Shown piece after piece: positions 1,727 through 57,913 of a stretch of 64,000 bases of DNA; position 1 is the stretch's first letter; the number at the start of each line of letters is the position of its first letter. This stretch comes from Escherichia coli (GTDB lineage: Bacteria > Pseudomonadota > Gammaproteobacteria > Enterobacterales > Enterobacteriaceae), in assembly GCF_024502345.1 (NCBI RefSeq), contig NZ_JALDNN010000001.1; one strand, given 5' to 3'. The translations under genes were made by a program, and so were the position numbers. The notes beneath the pieces are model-generated. The model made no database searches. It was given only the letters and a program-made list of their open reading frames with translations, and was not told where the DNA came from.

Positions 1727-4540
1727 ATGCCAATGGAGAGCTGTACGCAAATGAACGCCGTAGAAATTGAACAAGCCATCACGGATCTTGCAGAGCAACC
1801 CTTTGATCCTATAGAGTTTCCTTATGCTTTTCTTGAAGCCTTTGGTAACAAGGAAACGACTGTCAAACGCTTGCGCGCCGGTGCATCAAACAAATCCGAC
1901 TTGGGCGGTGTTCTCCAGAGCAATAATATTCACATTCTGACCTGCGAAGCAGGGACTGTGACTCAGATGTTGGCCGCGCTCAAGGCTAGCCCTGCGACAA
2001 CTAAAGCCAAGGCGAAGTTCATCCTGGCTACAGATGGCAAAGATTTCGAAGCTGAAGACCTCGTTAGCGGTCAGACTGTCGCTTGCGCCTTTAAAGACTT
2101 CCCAGATCACTTCGGCTTTTTCTTGCCATTAGCAGGCATTAGCACAGTTCGTCAGATTTGTGAGAACTCCTTTGACATTCGGGCCACTAGCCGGCTGAAT
2201 CGTCTGTATGTCGAGTTGTTGAAAGATAACCCTACCTGGGGGACGGCGGAGCGACGTCATGACATGAACAAATTCATGACTCGGCTGATCTTTTGTTTTT
2301 TCGCTGAGGATACTGACATTTTCGTGGGTAAGGGACGCTTTACTGAAACCGTTGCGCAGATGAGTACAAGAGATTCGTCGAATACGCATGAAGTTATCGC
2401 TACCTTGTTTCGTGCCATGAACACCAGTAACAAAGATAGAGCCGCCGCTGGCATCCCGCGCTGGGCCAATGAGTTTCCTTATGTCAACGGACGCTTGTTC
2501 TCTGGGAGTAATGATGTACCACTGTTCAGTAAGATTGCACGGTCTTATTTGCTCCATGTGGGTAGCCTTGACTGGACCAAGATTAATCCGGATATCTTTG
2601 GCTCGATGATTCAGGCAATTGCCGAAGACGAAGAACGCGGAGAGCTGGGGATGCATTACACCAGCGTACCCAACATCTTAAAAGTTTTGAATCCACTATT
2701 TCTGGACGACCTGCGCGCAAAGCTGGATGAGGCGGGTGACAATCCGCGTATGTTGCTTAACCTGCGTAAGCGCATTTCCCACATCCGTGTGTTCGACCCA
2801 GCGTGCGGTTCTGGTAACTTTTTGGTTATCGCGTACAAGGAAATGCGTGCCATTGAGGCCGAAATCAACAAGCGGCGTAATGAGCCAGATCGCGCCTCGG
2901 ATATCCCACTTACCAACTTTCGCGGGATTGAACTAAGAGATTTCCCGGCAGAGATCGCCCGCCTTGCGCTTGTTATCGCTGAGTACCAATGTGATGTACT
3001 GTACCGTGGGCTGCGGTTGGCCTTGGCTGAGCTTCTTCCGTTACGCAACGAAAATTGGATTACCTGTGGCAATGCACTACGGCTCGACTGGTTAAGAATT
3101 TGCCCGCCGACAGGAACAGGTGTGAAATTACATGGCGATGACTTGTTTGGATCTCCGCTTGATCAGGCAGAGATCGACTTTGAGAATGAAGGCGGAGAGA
3201 CATACATTTGCGGTAACCCACCATACCTTGGTTCAAAGTGGCAGACGGATGAACATAAAGCTGATCTTGGCACAATCTTTTCTGGTCGCGTGAAAAATTG
3301 GAAATCGCTCGATTATGTTGCTGGCTGGTTCCTGAAAGCCGCTGACTATGGTAGCCAGACAAGTTCCCAGGCTGCTTTTGTTGCCACTAATTCAATCAGC
3401 CAAGGGCAGCAAGTGTCGATTCTGTGGCCGGAAATATTCAAGGCAGGACAAGAGATTAGTTTCGCTTACACGAGCTTTAAGTGGTCGAACCTCGCTACTC
3501 ACAACGCCGGGGTCACAGTTGTTATCATCGGAATTTCTAACTGTGTAGGAAAGTCGCGACGCCTCTTTTCGGCTGGAGGAGACAATGGTGCGACGACGTG
3601 TCGTGAGGTGGAGCGCATCAACGCCTATTTGATCGCTGGCCCTAACATCATTGTGGAGGGGGACAGTTGTCCAGCCGACAGTCTTGCAACGATGCAGTTC
3701 GGTAACCACCCGTACTATGGTGCATCACTGATCTTTTCGAGATCTGAAGCACAGCAGATGATGTCTGTCGATCCGCGTACGGCGCGTTTTATTCGCCCAC
3801 TATATGGCTCCCAAGAGTTCATTTCCGCTGTGCCACGAGCCTGTCTATGGATTAACGACGATGAGGCTGACGAAGCGGGGACGATTCCTCTGATAGCTGA
3901 GCGTATGAGCGCCGTAGCAAGTGCTAGACGTGCAAAAAAACAAGACAAGGCAGCCCAGAAACTGGCTAAGACTCCATATCGCTTTCGCGACCAGCAGACA
4001 TCTACGAATCATATTCTTGTGGTTCCTCGAGTCAGTTCAGAGAACCGTCCTTGCTTGCCGGTTGGATTACTTGACTCTGACTCTATCGTTCAAGATCAAG
4101 CATTCGCCCTTTACGACGCTCCTCTCTGGAACCTCGCCATCATAGCGAGTCGCCTGCATCTAGTTTGGATCGCCACGGTTTGTGGAAAGTTAGAGACACG
4201 CTACCGCTATTCAAACACCCTCGGCTGGAATACTTTCCCGCTCCCAACACTCACTGAGAAAAATAAGGCAGACCTCACGCGCTGTGCAGAGGATATTCTT
4301 CTGACTAGGGAGCATCACTTCCCTGCAACCATTGCAGACCTTTATGACCCCGAGAAGATGCCAGACGACCTGCGTATTGTGCACGAGCGTAATGACGAAG
4401 TGCTTGAGCGTATTTACATTGGGCGCCGCTTTAAGAATGACACAGAGCGGCTTGAGAAGCTGTTTGACCTTTATACTAAGATGGCCGCTTCAACTGCATC
4501 GGGCAAAAGCAATAAACGTAAAGTGGGAACCAATGCATGA
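1727..4540 (+). CDS. MmeI-family (type IIG/IIL-like) N6-adenine DNA methyltransferase with target-recognition region; N-terminal nuclease motif apparently degenerate
   Basis: 937-aa ORF. SAM motif I FDPACGSGNFLV, catalytic motif IV GNPPY, and MmeI/PglX hallmarks FPYVNGRLF, HYTSVPNILKVLNPLFLDDL, FVATNSISQGQQVSILWP, RYRYSNTLGWNTFP, LYDPEKMP. Alternative start at 1751 (MNAVEIEQ). Confidence 0.85.
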   Translation: MPMESCTQMNAVEIEQAITDLAEQPFDPIEFPYAFLEAFGNKETTVKRLRAGASNKSDLGGVLQSNNIHILTCEAGTVTQMLAALKASPATTKAKAKFILATDGKDFEAEDLVSGQTVACAFKDFPDHFGFFLPLAGISTVRQICENSFDIRATSRLNRLYVELLKDNPTWGTAERRHDMNKFMTRLIFCFFAEDTDIFVGKGRFTETVAQMSTRDSSNTHEVIATLFRAMNTSNKDRAAAGIPRWANEFPYVNGRLFSGSNDVPLFSKIARSYLLHVGSLDWTKINPDIFGSMIQAIAEDEERGELGMHYTSVPNILKVLNPLFLDDLRAKLDEAGDNPRMLLNLRKRISHIRVFDPACGSGNFLVIAYKEMRAIEAEINKRRNEPDRASDIPLTNFRGIELRDFPAEIARLALVIAEYQCDVLYRGLRLALAELLPLRNENWITCGNALRLDWLRICPPTGTGVKLHGDDLFGSPLDQAEIDFENEGGETYICGNPPYLGSKWQTDEHKADLGTIFSGRVKNWKSLDYVAGWFLKAADYGSQTSSQAAFVATNSISQGQQVSILWPEIFKAGQEISFAYTSFKWSNLATHNAGVTVVIIGISNCVGKSRRLFSAGGDNGATTCREVERINAYLIAGPNIIVEGDSCPADSLATMQFGNHPYYGASLIFSRSEAQQMMSVDPRTARFIRPLYGSQEFISAVPRACLWINDDEADEAGTIPLIAERMSAVASARRAKKQDKAAQKLAKTPYRFRDQQTSTNHILVVPRVSSENRPCLPVGLLDSDSIVQDQAFALYDAPLWNLAIIASRLHLVWIATVCGKLETRYRYSNTLGWNTFPLPTLTEKNKADLTRCAEDILLTREHHFPATIADLYDPEKMPDDLRIVHERNDEVLERIYIGRRFKNDTERLEKLFDLYTKMAASTASGKSNKRKVGTNA

Positions 4541-6582
4541 GCAACAAGATTAGATCTGTACCGTCAGTTTCTGTTACCTACTCACGCAACGGAGCATCGA
4601 CCAAGGCTAATTCTCTTGGGATGCGTCCTATGCAAGAAAGGGCTTATGAGAAGCGCGGAGAACAATATCTTCTCATAAAGTCGCCGCCCGCCTCTGGCAA
4701 GAGTCGTGCGCTGATGTTCGTCGCACTCGATAAACTCGCAAACCAGGGGATCAAACAGGCAATCATTGTCGTGCCGGAAAAATCTATCGGCGCGAGCTTC
4801 AACGATGAACCGCTATCGCAGTTTGGATTCTGGGCTGATTGGCATGTTGAACCTAAGTGGAATCTGTGCAACGCCCCCGGTAACGACAACGGCGGCAAGG
4901 TAAAATCTTTCGGCTCTTTTCTTGAAAGTAGCGACAAGGTGCTTGTTTGTACACACGCAACCTTTCGCTTCGCGGTCGATGCCTACGGTGTAGAGGCGTT
5001 TGACGATCGCCTGATCGCCGTCGATGAATTTCACCATGTGTCCGCTAACCCGGATAACAAGCTTGGTCAGCATCTGGGACAGTTCATTGAGCGTGACAAG
5101 ACGCACATCGTGGCCATGACCGGCTCCTACTTCCGGGGAGATGCGGAAGCCGTTTTGGCTCCTCAGGATGAGTCTAGGTTCGATACCGTCACCTACACCT
5201 ACTACGAACAACTCAACGGTTACGAATACCTCAAACAGCTTGATATCGGATACTTCTTTTATAGTGGATCATACATTGATGACATCCTCAATGTCCTCGA
5301 TCCTGACAAGAAAACGATTATCCATATTCCCAACGTCAATTCGCGCGAGAGTACGAAGGATAAAATTAAGGAGGTGGAGCACATTCTGAGCGAGCTTGGC
5401 GATTGGCAAGGTGCGGATCCTACGACTGGTTTTCAGCTAGTCAAGCGCCCCGATGGCCATGTGTTGCGTATTGCTGACCTGGTGGACCCAGCCAGTCAAG
5501 GCAAGATTCAGGAAAGCCTCCGAGCTCCAGAAATGAAGACAGACCGTGACTATGTAGACATCATTATTGCACTTGGTATGGCGAAGGAAGGTTTCGACTG
5601 GATCTGGTGCGAACATGCGCTGACTGTTGGCTACCGTGCCAGCCTGACTGAGATCGTGCAGATTATCGGTCGCGCTACTCGCGACGCGCCGGGTAAAACC
5701 CGCGCGAGATTTACTAACTTGATCGCCGAGCCCGACGCTGTAGAGGGCGCAGTAACTGAGGCAGTCAACGATACCTTGAAAGCTATCGCGGCGAGCCTGT
5801 TGATGGAACAGGTACTGGCTCCGCGCTTCGAGTTCAAGCCCAAGAATCCTGAAATCGGTCCGACTCCAGGCTTTGATTATGGTGATGGAGGATATGACCC
5901 GGATAGCTGCAATTTTGGTGTTAATGAGCAGACAGGGACGTATCAAATCGAGATTAAGGGACTTGCCGAGCCTAGGAGCAAAGAGGCGGCACGTATCTGC
6001 CAGGAAGATTTAAACGAAGTGATCGCGGCCTTTGTGCAGGATAAGCCCGCCATCGAACGAGGCCTGTTCGATGAAGAGCTGATCCCTGAAGAGTTAACAC
6101 AGGTTCGTATGGGTAAGATCATCAAAGAAAAGTATCCTGAACTTGATGCTGAAGATCAGGAGGCTGTACGTCAGCATGCTATCGCCGCCCTTAACCTCAC
6201 GCAGCAGGCCAAGCGTCTTGCTACCGGTGAAAACGATGGGACGCTCAATACTGCTCTTATTGACGGAGTGCGTCGCTTTGCAATGGATGTGCGCGATTTA
6301 GACATAGACCTTATCGACCGCATCAATCCCTTTGGTGAAGCCTACGCTATCCTTGCTAAGACGATGAGTGAAGACAGTTTGAAGCAGGTCGCGGCGGCCA
6401 TCTCGGCCAAGCGTACTTCGATCACGCCTGAAGATGCCAAGGTGATCGCCAAGCGTGCCGCTGAATTCAAACGTGAACGTGGGCGCCTCCCATCGTTAAC
6501 TTCGCTGGATGCTTGGGAAAAACACCTTGCTGAAGGTGCAGCCGCGTTTATGCGTTTTAGGGCGGAGGGACGTTATGAGTAA
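4537..6582 (+). CDS. SF2 DExH-box helicase with ~280-aa C-terminal extension of unknown function
   Basis: 681-aa ORF. Walker A PPASGKS, motif II VDEFHH, motif III MTGSY, motif VI QIIGRATR. Start ATG overlaps the methyltransferase stop (ATGA at 4537-4540). Confidence 0.8.
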   Translation: MSNKIRSVPSVSVTYSRNGASTKANSLGMRPMQERAYEKRGEQYLLIKSPPASGKSRALMFVALDKLANQGIKQAIIVVPEKSIGASFNDEPLSQFGFWADWHVEPKWNLCNAPGNDNGGKVKSFGSFLESSDKVLVCTHATFRFAVDAYGVEAFDDRLIAVDEFHHVSANPDNKLGQHLGQFIERDKTHIVAMTGSYFRGDAEAVLAPQDESRFDTVTYTYYEQLNGYEYLKQLDIGYFFYSGSYIDDILNVLDPDKKTIIHIPNVNSRESTKDKIKEVEHILSELGDWQGADPTTGFQLVKRPDGHVLRIADLVDPASQGKIQESLRAPEMKTDRDYVDIIIALGMAKEGFDWIWCEHALTVGYRASLTEIVQIIGRATRDAPGKTRARFTNLIAEPDAVEGAVTEAVNDTLKAIAASLLMEQVLAPRFEFKPKNPEIGPTPGFDYGDGGYDPDSCNFGVNEQTGTYQIEIKGLAEPRSKEAARICQEDLNEVIAAFVQDKPAIERGLFDEELIPEELTQVRMGKIIKEKYPELDAEDQEAVRQHAIAALNLTQQAKRLATGENDGTLNTALIDGVRRFAMDVRDLDIDLIDRINPFGEAYAILAKTMSEDSLKQVAAAISAKRTSITPEDAKVIAKRAAEFKRERGRLPSLTSLDAWEKHLAEGAAAFMRFRAEGRYE

Positions 6583-55386: not shown

Positions 55387-55488
55387 TTGTTATCTCCTCT
55401 GTTTTGGTAGACAGTACCCGACACGGAACATTTAAAAAAATGAATGTTTTTATATTCTAGATTCGATATTTTCGATAGGTTTGGGGTT

Positions 55489-56370
55489 ATGGATCTGCGC
55501 CGTTTTATTACGCTTAAAACCGTGGTGGAAGAGGGTTCCTTTTTGCGAGCTTCGCAAAAATTGTGCTGTACACAATCGACGGTGACTTTTCATATTCAGC
55601 AGCTTGAGCAGGAGTTTTCAGTCCAGTTATTTGAGAAAATTGGCCGACGGATGTGCCTTACCCGCGAAGGAAAAAAGTTGCTGCCGCACATTTATGAACT
55701 TACCCGAGTGATGGATACGCTTCGTGAGGCTGCCAAAAAGGAGTCAGATCCGGACGGGGAACTACGCGTTGTTTCGGGCGAAACGTTGCTCTCTTACCGA
55801 ATGCCGCAGGTGTTGCAGCGTTTTCGGCAACGCGCACCAAAAGTGCGTTTATCGTTGCAGTCGCTGAACTGTTACGTGATCCGTGATGCGCTACTGAATG
55901 ATGAGGCCGATGTCGGCGTCTTTTATCGCGTAGGGAATGATGATGCCCTGAACCGACGAGAGTTGGGTGAACAATCGCTGGTGCTGGTGGCTTCACCGCA
56001 AATTGCAGATGTCGATTTTACTGAGCCGGGAAGACATAACGCCTGTAGCTTTATTATCAACGAACCGCAATGTGTCTTCCGGCAGATATTTGAGAGCACG
56101 CTGCGTCAGCGGCGGATCACGGTGGAAAACACCATTGAGCTGTTAAGCATTGAAAGTATCAAACGTTGTGTCGCGGCGAATATCGGTGTCAGTTACTTGC
56201 CCCGCTTTGCGGTGGAAAAAGAGCTTGAGAGCGGAGAATTAATTGAATTGCCTTTTGGCGAACAGTCGCAGACCATTACGGCCATGTGCGCACACCATGC
56301 TGGAAAAGCGGTTAGCCCGGCGATGCACACTTTTATTCAGTGTGTTGAAGAGAGTTTTGTGGCTGGATAA
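55489..56370 (+). CDS. yfiE: LysR-family transcriptional regulator YfiE
   Basis: MDLRRFITLKTVVEEGSFLRASQKLCCTQSTVTFHIQQLE... HTH plus substrate-binding domain. Confidence 0.85.
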   Translation: MDLRRFITLKTVVEEGSFLRASQKLCCTQSTVTFHIQQLEQEFSVQLFEKIGRRMCLTREGKKLLPHIYELTRVMDTLREAAKKESDPDGELRVVSGETLLSYRMPQVLQRFRQRAPKVRLSLQSLNCYVIRDALLNDEADVGVFYRVGNDDALNRRELGEQSLVLVASPQIADVDFTEPGRHNACSFIINEPQCVFRQIFESTLRQRRITVENTIELLSIESIKRCVAANIGVSYLPRFAVEKELESGELIELPFGEQSQTITAMCAHHAGKAVSPAMHTFIQCVEESFVAG

Positions 56371-56428
56371 AAATAATGTCGGGATTAAACCCGGCATTTA
56401 ACTTGTCGACAAAGTGCGCTTTATTCAT

Positions 56429-56526
56429 GCCGGATGCGGCGTGAACGCCTTATCCGGCCTACAAGATCGTGCAAATTCAATATATTGCATGAGCCACGTA
56501 GGCCTGATAAGCGTAGCGCATCAGGC
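56429..56526. repeat. REP/BIME element (two inverted REP copies)
   Basis: gccggatgcggcgtgaacgccttatccggcctac and gtaggcctgataagcgtagcgcatcaggc match the E. coli REP consensus. Confidence 0.85.
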
Positions 56527-56578
56527 AGTTTTGCGTTTGCCAGCACTTTTAATACCAGGCTTAAACCCGGCATTGAGA

Positions 56579-57913
56579 TTACTCTTCTGTCGTTTGCGGT
56601 GGCACGCCCGTTCCGCTTGGTTTACGGCGCTTACCAATATTTTTGGTGTCGCGATGGCGTTTTTTCACCCGCGGTTTCTCTTTCTCTTTAGCTTTTTTCT
56701 TCTCGGCGCGTTTTGCCAGTACTTTCTTCGATGGCTTGCCGGTCTGCTTCTCGCTTGGCGCACGCGTTTTCGGGCGTAACTCATCAATAACGCGAGCTTT
56801 AATCGGCTCTTCAATGTAACGGCCAACCTTGCCCAGCAGCAAATGGTCATGGGCTTCCACCAGCGAAATTGCGGTGCCTTTACGACCGGCGCGCGCGGTA
56901 CGTCCGATACGGTGCAAATAAGTATCGCCACTGCGCGGCATATCGAAGTTAAAGACGTGGCTGACGTCAGGAATGTCGATACCGCGCGCGGCAACATCGG
57001 TTGCAACCAGTACGTTTACGCGACCTTCGGTCAAACGCTTGATCGCTTCGTTACGCTTGCCTTGTACCATCTCACCTTCGAGATAGCAGTTGTTGATGCC
57101 CGCTTCGCGCAGCCAGTTTGCCAGCTCATGCACACGTTCACGCTTACGCACAAACACAATTGAGCGGGTCGCTTCCGGCTGTTTTAACAGATGCACCAGC
57201 AATGCGGTTTTATGTTCCAGGTCATCGGCGCGGTAATACCACTGATGAATTTTTTTGCGCTCACGGGTGGACGGATTGGCAGAAACCTCCACCGGATCTT
57301 CCAGCAGACGCTCGGCAAAGTCCTGAATCGCATCGCCTTCCAGCGTTGCCGAAAAGAGCAGGGTCTGTTTACGCCAGCGCGTTTCGCCAGCAATATGTTC
57401 GATATCCTGAGCGAAGCCCATATCCAGCATACGGTCTGCTTCGTCGAGGATCAGCGTTTCAACCGCGCGGCAATCGAAGTTCTCTTCTTTTATGTATTGC
57501 AGCAGACGTCCGGTCGTGGCGACCACGATGTCCTGATTTTCGCTGAACACTTCCGCGTGGTTCATATAGGCTACGCCGCCGGTGATGGTGGCGATATCCA
57601 GATGCGTATGTTTCGCCAGTTCGCGGGCATGATCGGCCACCTGCATCGCCAGCTCGCGAGTTGGGGTGAGGATCAAAATACGCGGCGGACCGGATTTCTT
57701 ACGTGGGAAATCGAGCAGGTGCTGCAACGCTGGCAGCAGATACGCCGCCGTTTTACCGGTGCCTGTCGGCGCAGAACCGAGTACATCACGGCCATCGAGC
57801 GCAGGCGGAATGGCGGCAGCCTGAATGGCGGTCGGGCGAGTGAAACCTTTATCCTGGAGGGCTTCCAGCAGGCTTTCGTCGAGTTCAAGTTCGGAAAAAG
57901 TCGTTACAGTCAT
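56579..57913 (-). CDS. srmB: DEAD-box RNA helicase SrmB
   Basis: 444-aa ORF with [17 protein letters not shown] motifs and basic C-terminal tail. Confidence 0.95.

What the first reader, a model, noticed from the sequence alone, without database searches (positions are those of the whole stretch)
56385..56574. REP/BIME element flanked by a 14-bp direct repeat
TTAAACCCGGCATT occurs at 56385-56398 and again at 56561-56574, bracketing the REP pair between yfiE and srmB. This looks like the footprint of a REP-containing segment insertion with target duplication.
Basis: seen in the sequence. Interest (0 to 1): 0.2.

Follow-up and report, generated by a model that had tools for sequence, protein, structure and literature searches.

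The report
BIME-1 insertion that duplicated a terminator hairpin
The 14-bp repeat is the unchanged part of a 24-bp terminator hairpin that was duplicated when a 153-bp mobile repeat (BIME-1) inserted between yfiE and srmB, and the same whole-hairpin duplication recurs at other BIME-1 sites, giving a testable clue to how these elements move.

Summary
The exact 14-mer occurs only at the two stated positions. It is the undiverged 3' part of a 24-25-nt direct repeat (56375-56398 and 56551-56574), and each copy is a 9-bp-stem hairpin.

The two copies bracket a complete 152/153-bp BIME-1 (Y REP, IHF-type L motif, Z1 REP, imperfect terminal inverted repeats).

2524 of 5425 complete E. coli genomes have the full arrangement. 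Many others (UTI89, 536, O157:H7) are exactly 176 bp shorter and carry one perfect palindrome, which is a predicted intrinsic terminator for srmB. E. albertii, Citrobacter and other enterics also have a single hairpin, so the insertion is the derived state. One cryptic Escherichia has three hairpins and two BIME-1 copies.

The pattern is general. At 8 of 28 independent BIME-1 sites the element is bracketed by two copies of that site's own hairpin (16-24 nt). Single-hairpin empty alleles were verified at three further sites.

A repeat whose length tracks hairpin size suggests breaks at the two feet of an extruded palindrome. This mechanism is inferred, and the closest analogue is CRISPR repeat duplication. 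It does not fit the canonical duplication-free Y1 (RAYT) model. Older subscription papers could not be read, so prior description cannot be excluded.

The parts
55444..56370 (+). yfiE (LysR-family regulator) coding sequence, the left gene of the convergent pair. The stop codon TAA is at 56368-56370.
   Evidence: ORF. Annotated as yfiE in RefSeq genomes matching this stretch.
56366..56374 (-). T-tract (ATTTTTATC on the - strand). In the empty allele it directly follows the single hairpin and completes srmB's intrinsic terminator. In this window it stays next to the left copy, which is the one distal to srmB.
   Evidence: Sequence. A terminator is predicted in the empty allele and none in the filled window.
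56375..56398 (.). Left copy of the duplicated terminator palindrome, AATGTCGGGATTAAACCCGGCATT. It contains the first 14-mer at 56385-56398.
   Evidence: -12.8 kcal/mol as + strand RNA, -9.3 as - strand. It differs from the single ancestral copy AATGCCGGGCTTAAACCCGGCATT at 2 positions.
56399..56550 (+). BIME-1 element (also called RIP or RIB), 152 bp here against a 153-bp family consensus. This is the inserted segment.
   Evidence: Absent from the empty alleles. Every E. coli genome has paralogous copies covering at least 80% of it. It aligns to the 153-bp consensus built from 18 full-length copies.
56399..56428 (+). Left terminal segment, TAACTTGTCGACAAAGTGCGCTTTATTCAT (family consensus CAGATTGTTGACAAAGTGCGCTTTGTTCAT). 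It forms an imperfect terminal inverted repeat with the right end.
   Evidence: 13 of 15 terminal bases complementary in the consensus.
56429..56462 (+). REP (palindromic unit) of type Y, GCCGGATGCGGCGTGAACGCCTTATCCGGCCTAC.
   Evidence: Internal palindrome I2 and inverted repeats I1 and I3 with the other REP. The type assignment follows the description in PMC3333891 and my own knowledge of the consensus.
56463..56497 (+). L linker carrying an IHF-consensus-like site, ATTCAATATATTG at 56475-56487.
   Evidence: The pattern AATTCAATATATTGC is shared by 28 BIME-1 sites. Rfam ES036/CssrF matches 56463-56505 at 49.9 bits against a gathering score of 37.6. PMC3333891 states that the BIME-1 L linker frequently carries an IHF site.
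56498..56526 (+). REP of type Z1 in inverted orientation, GTAGGCCTGATAAGCGTAGCGCATCAGGC.
   Evidence: (I1, I3) and the pattern match.
56527..56550 (+). Right terminal segment, AGTTTTGCGTTTGCCAGCACTTTT (consensus AGTTTTGCGTTTGTCATCAGTCTCA).
56551..56574 (.). Right copy of the duplicated terminator palindrome, AATACCAGGCTTAAACCCGGCATT. It contains the second 14-mer at 56561-56574.
   Evidence: -13.0 kcal/mol as - strand RNA, which is the srmB sense, and -7.1 as + strand. It differs from the ancestral copy by G4A and G7A.
56579..57913 (-). srmB (DEAD-box RNA helicase) coding sequence, the right gene of the convergent pair.
   Evidence: ORF. Annotation.

Best explanation
Ancestrally, yfiE and srmB were separated by about 30 bp holding one perfect palindrome, AATGCCGGG-CTTAAA-CCCGGCATT. 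On the srmB strand this palindrome is followed by a T-tract and forms an intrinsic terminator. A complete 153-bp BIME-1 inserted there. BIME-1 is a long-palindromic, MITE-like repeat with a Y REP, an IHF-type linker, a Z1 REP and imperfect terminal inverted repeats. The insertion duplicated the whole palindrome, giving hairpin-BIME-hairpin. The 14-mer is the part of the two copies that has not diverged since.

Shown: the insertion polarity (derived state), the exact 176-bp difference, the single-copy empty site, and recurrence of the same footprint at other BIME-1 sites.

Inferred: the target was broken on opposite strands at the two feet of the palindrome, most simply while it was extruded as a cruciform, where those two points lie close together in space. 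The element ends were joined there, and gap filling copied the palindrome on both sides. That would make the duplication length equal to the hairpin length. The enzyme is unknown.

One consequence is that each convergent gene keeps a hairpin next to its stop codon. However, srmB's T-tract now lies beyond the BIME, so srmB transcripts probably carry the BIME in their 3' UTR.
For: - The repeat is real and non-random, and both copies fold as hairpins.
- Presence/absence: 2524 of 5425 genomes are full length, and many others are exactly 176 bp shorter with one perfect palindrome.
- Outgroups: E. albertii and the E. coli species representative have one palindrome. Citrobacter has one homologous hairpin. 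Klebsiella, Enterobacter, Raoultella and others have one A-run/stem/T-run hairpin.
- The empty allele has a predicted terminator for srmB, and the filled window has none.
- L009 has three identical palindromes spaced 176 bp apart with two BIME-1 copies, which is what unequal exchange between the direct repeats would produce.
- Filled alleles from different lineages share derived characters, indicating a single insertion event.
- The insert is a member of a dispersed family with fixed ends and a 153-bp length.
- Generality: at 8 of 28 independent sites the flanks match each other at or above the 99th percentile of 756 mismatched-pair controls, and 5 sites exceed every control. The repeat is the whole local hairpin (16-24 nt) and abuts both ends within 0-3 nt.
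- Single-hairpin empty alleles were verified at ysgA-metE, rutG-ymdF and satP-mog.
- The same geometric argument has been made for the 28-bp CRISPR repeat duplication (PMC4940900).
Against: - No enzyme or intermediate is identified, and cruciform extrusion at these short palindromes was not tested.
- At 20 of 28 sites no bracketing repeat is recognisable. Most of these have a hairpin on one side only, so either the duplication is not obligatory or one copy decays. This could not be resolved, because no clean empty alleles exist for two such sites.
- REP/BIME elements are currently attributed to Y1 (RAYT/TnpA-REP) transposases, whose relatives make no target duplication (PMC3333891, PMC2817692).
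- Filled alleles occur on two different flanking haplotypes and in cryptic Escherichia, while many E. coli are empty. Some empty alleles may therefore be secondary precise deletions between the repeats and not ancestral.
Confidence: 0.75

Rival explanations
1. The filled arrangement with two hairpins is the original state. The short alleles arose by deletion (excision) between the direct repeats, so the repeat is not a target duplication.
For: Direct repeats of 24 bp promote precise deletion. [quoted passage not shown] From memory, its abstract describes 'excisions of a whole BIME-1'. Filled alleles occur in cryptic Escherichia as well as in E. coli, so some E. coli empty alleles may well be revertants.
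Against: E. albertii, Citrobacter and more distant enterics all have one hairpin and no BIME. The empty palindrome differs from the window's two copies in an alternating left, right, left, right pattern, which a single crossover cannot produce. The same single-hairpin versus hairpin-BIME-hairpin contrast is seen at three other loci.
Confidence: 0.05
2. Two separate events occurred. The terminator hairpin was first duplicated in tandem by local slippage, and a BIME-1 later inserted between the copies without itself making a duplication.
For: It is compatible with a duplication-free Y1-type insertion. Palindromes are prone to slippage.
Against: No allele with two hairpins and no BIME appeared among the alleles sampled down the ranking of 5478 records. 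The two-event coincidence would have to recur at 8 or more independent loci, each time with the element exactly between the copies and abutting both within 0-3 nt.
Confidence: 0.07
3. The structure arose by replication template switching. A fork stalled at the palindrome, the nascent strand copied a BIME-1 elsewhere, then returned upstream of the palindrome and copied it again.
For: Palindromes stall replication. This route would duplicate the palindrome without any transposase. The tsx-yajD BIME-1 sits next to a similar hairpin, AATGCCGGGATTTATTCCCGGCATT, which could provide homology for switching.
Against: The element has the same 153-bp length and the same conserved termini at unrelated sites. 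That argues for end-specific cleavage, not microhomology-guided switching. The hairpins differ completely between sites, so there is no general homology.
Confidence: 0.12
4. The 14-bp repeat is a chance match, or reflects two independently evolved terminators, one for each convergent gene.
For: GC-rich terminator stems such as GCCGGG/CCCGGC are common. Similar stems occur after tsx and rhlE.
Against: Chance expectation is 0.01 matches and 0 of 100 shuffles reach 2. The similarity extends to 25 nt including the loop. Empty alleles and outgroups have one copy. L009 has three identical copies.
Confidence: 0.01

Closest known systems
BIME-1 (bacterial interspersed mosaic element type 1; also called RIP or RIB elements) of E. 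coli
   Same: It has one Y and one Z1 palindromic unit in inverted orientation, separated by the long conserved L linker with an IHF-type site. It is single-copy at the locus, extragenic, and sits at the 3' ends of genes. It is about 140-150 bp long and is present or absent between strains (PMC3333891; PMC1187871).
   Different: Nothing differs in the element itself. What I did not find described in the accessible literature is that its termini are inverted repeats and that it is often bracketed by a duplication of the local terminator hairpin.
MITEs (miniature inverted-repeat transposable elements)
   Same: It is short and non-coding, occurs in many copies, has terminal inverted repeats, folds into one long hairpin, and is flanked by direct repeats of target sequence (definition in PMC3184786).
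   Different: MITE target duplications have a short fixed length set by the transposase. Here the length varies (16-24 nt) and equals the local palindrome. No parent IS with matching ends was identified. [quoted passage not shown]
REPIN/RAYT (TnpA-REP, Y1 HUH transposase) system
   Same: Two inverted REPs form the presumed mobile unit, and BIME-1 is cited as the E. coli analogue of REP doublets (PMC2817692).
   Different: IS200/IS605-type Y1 transposition is single-stranded and leaves no flanking direct repeats. The proposed BIME integration targets are existing REP/BIME sites, not unrelated terminator hairpins.
CRISPR spacer integration by Cas1-Cas2 (repeat duplication)
   Same: Double-ended integration at the two borders of a palindromic unit duplicates the whole unit, giving repeat-insert-repeat. 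The long duplication (28 bp) is rationalised by the attack points being close if the repeat is cruciform (PMC4940900).
   Different: This is a resemblance in mechanism only. The insert here is 153 bp with defined ends, not a roughly 33-bp spacer. There is no leader, no array polarity and no cas genes nearby, and the targets are diverse terminators.
REP/BIME-targeting insertion sequences (IS1397 of the IS3 family, IS621 of the IS110 family)
   Same: They show that this very BIME is a recombination hotspot. IS621 or IS1397 sits inside it in some strains.
   Different: Those are autonomous elements inserting into the BIME. They do not explain how the BIME itself arrived or why the hairpin is duplicated.

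Membership tests
BIME-1 / RIP / RIB | One Y and one Z1 palindromic unit in inverted (head-to-head) orientation | tested here: met
   REPs at 56429-56462 and 56498-56526. Inverted repeats I1 to I3. The same arrangement is seen in 28 sites. The Y and Z1 naming follows PMC3333891 plus my own knowledge of the consensus sequences.
BIME-1 / RIP / RIB | Long conserved L linker carrying an IHF-binding consensus | tested here: met
   The 35-nt linker holds ATTCAATATATTG, and AATTCAATATATTGC is conserved across all sampled copies. Actual IHF binding was not testable.
BIME-1 / RIP / RIB | [quoted passage not shown] | tested here: met
   It lies between the stop codons of the convergent yfiE and srmB genes and there is one unit in the window. 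L009 is an exception with two units.
BIME-1 / RIP / RIB | Present or absent as a whole between E. coli isolates | tested here: met
   Also true at rutG-ymdF and satP-mog.
MITE | Terminal inverted repeats | tested here: met
   The consensus termini CAGATTGTTGACAAA and TTTGTCATCAGTCTCA are 13 of 15 complementary, and the consensus folds end to end. In this window's copy the termini have degenerated.
MITE | Flanking target-site duplication of fixed short length | tested here: not met
   A duplication is present but its length varies with the local hairpin, 16-24 nt. It is recognisable at only 8 of 28 sites.
MITE | A related autonomous IS with the same ends | not tested
   No IS database was available and no candidate was identified.
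REPIN mobilised by a RAYT (Y1 transposase) | Two inverted REPs forming a hairpin-capable unit | tested here: met
REPIN mobilised by a RAYT (Y1 transposase) | Insertion without flanking direct repeats, as in IS200/IS605-type single-strand transposition | tested here: not met
   A whole-hairpin duplication is verified against empty alleles at 4 loci. The expectation of no direct repeats comes from PMC3333891 and PMC2817692.
Intrinsic (Rho-independent) terminator, for the duplicated unit | GC-rich stem-loop followed directly by a T/U-tract | tested here: met
   In the empty allele, the - strand has an 11-bp stem followed by TTTTTATCC. In the filled window neither copy passes the scan, because the T-tract remains only beside the left copy. 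Termination activity itself was not testable.
CRISPR repeat-spacer unit | Cas1-Cas2 dependent, about 33-bp insert, leader-proximal, array with cas genes | tested here: not met
   The insert is 152 bp with conserved ends, and the flanks are yfiE and srmB. Only the repeat-duplication geometry is shared.

The most novel reading that the evidence does not exclude
BIME-1 elements are MITE-like transposable units that integrate by a double-ended reaction at the two feet of extruded terminator palindromes. Each insertion therefore duplicates the whole hairpin, in a CRISPR-spacer-like geometry. This would mean BIME-1 spread does not follow the canonical duplication-free single-strand Y1 pathway. It would need either a different integrase or a new two-strand activity of TnpA-REP. 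It would also mean BIME-1 insertion is a regular source of duplicated terminators at gene ends.
Probability: 0.35. Interest if true: 0.7.

Novelty: new variant of a known kind. Interest (0 to 1): 0.5.

Why it matters
How REP/BIME elements move has been open since their discovery. The current model, a domesticated Y1 transposase acting on single strands, predicts no target duplication, and a review states that REPs lack MITE signatures.

A reproducible footprint gives a concrete molecular signature of the integration step. That footprint is a fixed 153-bp element with inverted-repeat ends, bracketed by a duplication that equals the local terminator hairpin. It was verified against empty alleles at four loci. 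It makes testable predictions:
- insertion should depend on palindrome extrusion and supercoiling;
- the duplication length should track palindrome length.

It also explains why BIME-1 sits at gene 3' ends and is tolerated there, since each neighbouring gene keeps a hairpin. It provides natural allele pairs (filled and empty) in thousands of sequenced strains for measuring the effect of a BIME on 3' end formation of srmB and yfiE.

At the level of this single locus, the feature is an ordinary, known type of strain polymorphism.

Tried and rejected
1. Terminator scan of the window found nothing at either copy. Only the empty allele scores.
2. Strand specialisation of the two copies. In the window each copy folds best in the RNA of the nearer gene, and K-12 shows a compensatory change. 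The strand preference is not general across the 8 duplicated sites, so it is not claimed as a rule.
3. Left copy better preserved than right. This holds at 8 of 8 sampled sites, but an E. coli allele at satP-mog shows the opposite, so it is left unexplained.
4. Hairpin as part of the mobile element. Rejected, because paralogues share only the 153-bp core (fepA-entD) and the hairpins differ between sites.
5. Empty alleles for sites with a hairpin on one side only (ybiA-rhlE, yfeS-cysM), and for katE-chbG and mscK-rsmS. None were found, so it cannot be said whether duplication is obligatory.
6. K-12 reference annotation lists no repeat feature in this copy of the record.
7. Bachellier et al. 1997 (PMC1207841) and Boccard and Prentki 1993 (PMC413762) are not held. 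Six full-text searches found no description of hairpin duplication at BIME-1.
8. An Rfam scan gave only ES036/CssrF over the L motif, plus sub-threshold naRNA4 hits on the REPs.

Full report
**The observation**

The 14-mer TTAAACCCGGCATT occurs at 56385-56398 and 56561-56574 and nowhere else in the window, even with one mismatch allowed. Chance expectation is 0.01 matches, and 0 of 100 shuffles gave two.

The repeat is longer than reported. It is 25 nt at 84% identity (56374-56398 versus 56550-56574), with a start-to-start spacing of 176 bp. Each copy is a palindrome with a 9-bp stem and 6-nt loop:
- left copy: AATGTCGGG-ATTAAA-CCCGGCATT
- right copy: AATACCAGG-CTTAAA-CCCGGCATT

The left copy folds best as + strand RNA, which is the yfiE sense (-12.8 versus -9.3 kcal/mol). 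The right copy folds best as - strand RNA, which is the srmB sense (-13.0 versus -7.1).

The repeats lie in the 208-bp spacer between the convergent ORFs 55444-56370 (+) and 56579-57913 (-). RefSeq annotates these as yfiE and srmB. Between the repeats are two REPs in inverted orientation.

Against 5426 complete E. coli genomes, 2524 carry the full 451-bp query region. Rows sampled evenly down the ranking show a second large class, including UTI89, 536 and O157:H7, that spans the same flanks in 275 bp. That is exactly 176 bp less.

Aligned, these short alleles have a single, perfect palindrome, AATGCCGGGCTTAAACCCGGCATT, between the two stop codons. In this empty allele the palindrome is followed on the srmB strand by TTTTTATCC and is called as an intrinsic terminator with an 11-bp stem. 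It folds at about -21 kcal/mol on either strand. No terminator is called in the filled window. The T-tract (56366-56374) stayed next to the left copy, on the far side of the insert from srmB.

**Polarity of the event**

A scan of one genome per species with SrmB gave these results:
- E. albertii and the E. coli species representative have the single palindrome.
- Four Citrobacter species have one homologous hairpin (ATGCCGGGC...GCCCGGCAT).
- Klebsiella, Enterobacter, Raoultella, Kosakonia-like and other genera have one A-run/GCCGGG...CCCGGC/T-run hairpin directly after srmB.

The single hairpin is therefore ancestral and the bracketed arrangement is derived.

Two cryptic Escherichia genomes are filled. 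L008 has one insert. L009 has three identical copies of the ancestral palindrome spaced 176 bp apart, with two inserts between them. That is the product expected from unequal exchange between the direct repeats.

Filled alleles from the window, K-12, L008, L009 and an atypical E. coli (L088) share derived characters relative to the family consensus (AACTTGTCGAC, GCATGAGCC, TTTGCCAGCACTTTT). They are 93-97% identical to one another and 88-90% identical to the consensus, so they descend from one old insertion.

The window's two copies differ from the ancestral palindrome at different positions: C5T and C10A on the left, G4A and G7A on the right. A single crossover between them could not regenerate the empty sequence. 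Filled alleles sit on two flanking haplotypes, so some E. coli empty alleles may still be secondary precise deletions. This does not affect the origin of the repeat.

**What was inserted**

The 152 bp between the copies (56399-56550) consist of:
- a left terminal segment;
- a Y REP (56429-56462);
- a 35-nt L linker with an IHF-consensus-like ATTCAATATATTG;
- a Z1 REP (56498-56526);
- a right terminal segment.

This is the published definition of BIME-1 (PMC3333891; PMC1187871). Rfam's ES036/CssrF model matches the linker above its gathering score.

Every E. coli genome, including those empty at this site, has another place covering at least 80% of the insert at 90-95% identity. The paralogue between fepA and entD shares window 56403-56554 and no hairpin. 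The one after tsx lies directly next to a similar hairpin on one side only. The hairpin therefore belongs to the locus and not to the element.

**Generality**

A pattern specific to the L motif plus the Z1 REP retrieved 120 metagenomic stretches. After orienting and clustering by flanks, these represent 28 distinct genomic sites including the window's.

Anchored on the L motif, the family has a constant length of about 153 bp and conserved ends, CAGATTGTTGACAAAGTGCGC... and ...GCGTTTGTCATCAGTCTCA. The ends are imperfect inverted repeats (13 of 15), and the consensus folds end to end.

I compared the 45 nt outside the left end with the 45 nt outside the right end. The 756 mismatched left/right pairs score a mean of 6.2 (sd 1.4, 99th percentile 10, maximum 11). 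True pairs score as follows:

| Site | Score |
|---|---|
| katE-chbG | 16 |
| yfiE-srmB | 15 |
| rutG-ymdF | 15 |
| ysgA-metE | 15 |
| L112 | 14 |
| L104 (mscK-rsmS) | 11 |
| L094 (satP-mog) | 11 |
| L180 | 10 |

In each of these cases the repeated unit is that site's own hairpin, 16-24 nt long, abutting both element ends within 0-3 nt.

Empty alleles confirm the pattern at three further loci:

| Site | Empty allele | Filled allele |
|---|---|---|
| ysgA-metE | CCGGGTGGTATTACCACCCGG | CGGGTGGCGTTGCCACCCGA[153]CGGGTGGTGTTACCACCCGG |
| rutG-ymdF (1734 genomes filled, many others 174 bp shorter) | CCGCCGGGATTACCGGCGGTG | CCGCCGGGGTTACCGGCGGTG[153]ACCACCGGGTAACCGGCGGTG |
| satP-mog (467 genomes filled, many others 173 bp shorter) | ATCCCCCCGCTCGGGGGGAT | two copies around the element |

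Most of the other 20 sites have a hairpin on one side only. For two of them, and for katE-chbG and mscK-rsmS, no clean empty allele was available. Whether duplication is obligatory at birth therefore remains open.

**Mechanism (inferred)**

A duplication whose length varies from site to site and equals the local palindrome is not what a fixed-stagger transposase produces. It is also not what IS200/IS605-type Y1 transposition produces, since that leaves no flanking repeats (PMC2817692; PMC3333891). The current BIME model places integration at pre-existing REP/BIME sites.

The simplest geometry is breakage of opposite strands at the two feet of the palindrome. In an extruded cruciform those two points are adjacent in space. 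Joining the element ends there and filling the single-stranded palindrome on each side gives flank-hairpin-element-hairpin-flank with the copies in direct orientation. The fixed element length and conserved termini at unrelated sites argue for end-specific cleavage and against template switching.

Dyda and Hickman used the same argument for the 28-bp duplication of the palindromic CRISPR repeat during Cas1-Cas2 spacer integration (PMC4940900). That is the closest known analogue in mechanism, but not in membership. The enzyme is unknown.

**Consequences at this locus (partly inferred)**

Each convergent gene keeps a hairpin a few bases after its stop codon. The srmB-proximal copy has lost the T-tract, so srmB transcripts probably extend through the BIME.

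K-12's right copy has a compensatory A7:T18 pair, which hints at constraint on the stem. The substitutions in the window are each wobble-preserving in the RNA of the nearer gene. This is not a general rule across sites.

**Comparison with what is known, and novelty**

The element itself and its presence/absence polymorphism are known (PMC1187871). A review states that REPs 'do not display MITE signatures' (PMC3184786).

I found no description of inverted-repeat termini plus whole-hairpin target duplication for BIME-1 in six full-text searches or in the REPIN/RAYT papers I read. Three key older papers could not be checked: two were requested and are not held, and the third (Gilson et al. 1991) was not looked up.

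I therefore rate the locus itself as ordinary, and the footprint as a new variant of a known kind, with that caveat.

Noticed in passing
L004 (E. coli UTAK-10) 3358-4338; also IAI1 and about 50 of the top 60 hits: An IS110-family IS621 element sits inside this same yfiE-srmB BIME in many strains whose flanks are 99.4% identical to the window. IS621 is known to target REP sequences.
   Followed up: partly
L005 (E. coli CB7286) 1601-2949: An IS3-family IS1397 transposase gene is inserted in the same intergenic BIME. IS1397 is known to insert specifically into BIME palindromic units.
   Followed up: no
L009 (Escherichia sp. E1V33), downstream of srmB; positions 416-800 of the reverse-complemented stretch printed: The 176-bp unit is expanded in tandem. 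There are three identical ancestral palindromes and two BIME-1 copies that are 96.7% identical to each other.
   Followed up: yes
L089 (E. coli BS-04) about 335-440: A run of roughly 100 T interrupts the Z1 REP of this BIME in one assembly. It is probably an assembly or sequencing artefact and not biology.
   Followed up: no
window 56463-56505 (+): Rfam family ES036/CssrF (RF02751) matches the BIME-1 L linker above its gathering score (49.9 versus 37.6 bits). That 'sRNA' family therefore corresponds to the BIME-1 core.
   Followed up: no
L087 / L091 (tsx-yajD intergenic region): A BIME-1 copy lies directly after the tsx terminator hairpin AATGCCGGGATTTATTCCCGGCATT. Its degenerate right end runs into the stop codon of yajD, so the element end appears to contribute the gene's 3' end.
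   Followed up: no
eight duplicated BIME-1 sites; L215 (satP-mog, E. coli Q5): In the sampled alleles the hairpin copy at the Y-REP end is more stable than the copy at the Z1-REP end at 8 of 8 sites. An E. coli allele at satP-mog shows the reverse. Unexplained.
   Followed up: partly
L213 (E. coli K-12 MG1655) 6232-6439, the yfiE-srmB spacer: K-12's srmB-proximal hairpin copy is AATACCAGGCTTAAACCTGGCATT. The G7A change seen in the window is compensated by C18T, which restores a base pair. The exact 14-mer repeat is therefore imperfect in K-12.
   Followed up: partly
L165 607-791 (metagenome contig JFBN01307058.1): Two BIME-1 copies lie in tandem 147 bp apart, joined by CAGACAAACGCCTTAGCAGAC and not by a hairpin. 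This is a different kind of array from L009.
   Followed up: no
L120 (ybiA-rhlE), window 56551-56574, L087: Three BIME-1 sites, downstream of srmB, rhlE and tsx, adjoin hairpins of the form ATGCCGGG...CCCGGCAT. These share ATGCCGG with the start of the Y REP. This could be a target preference or chance.
   Followed up: no
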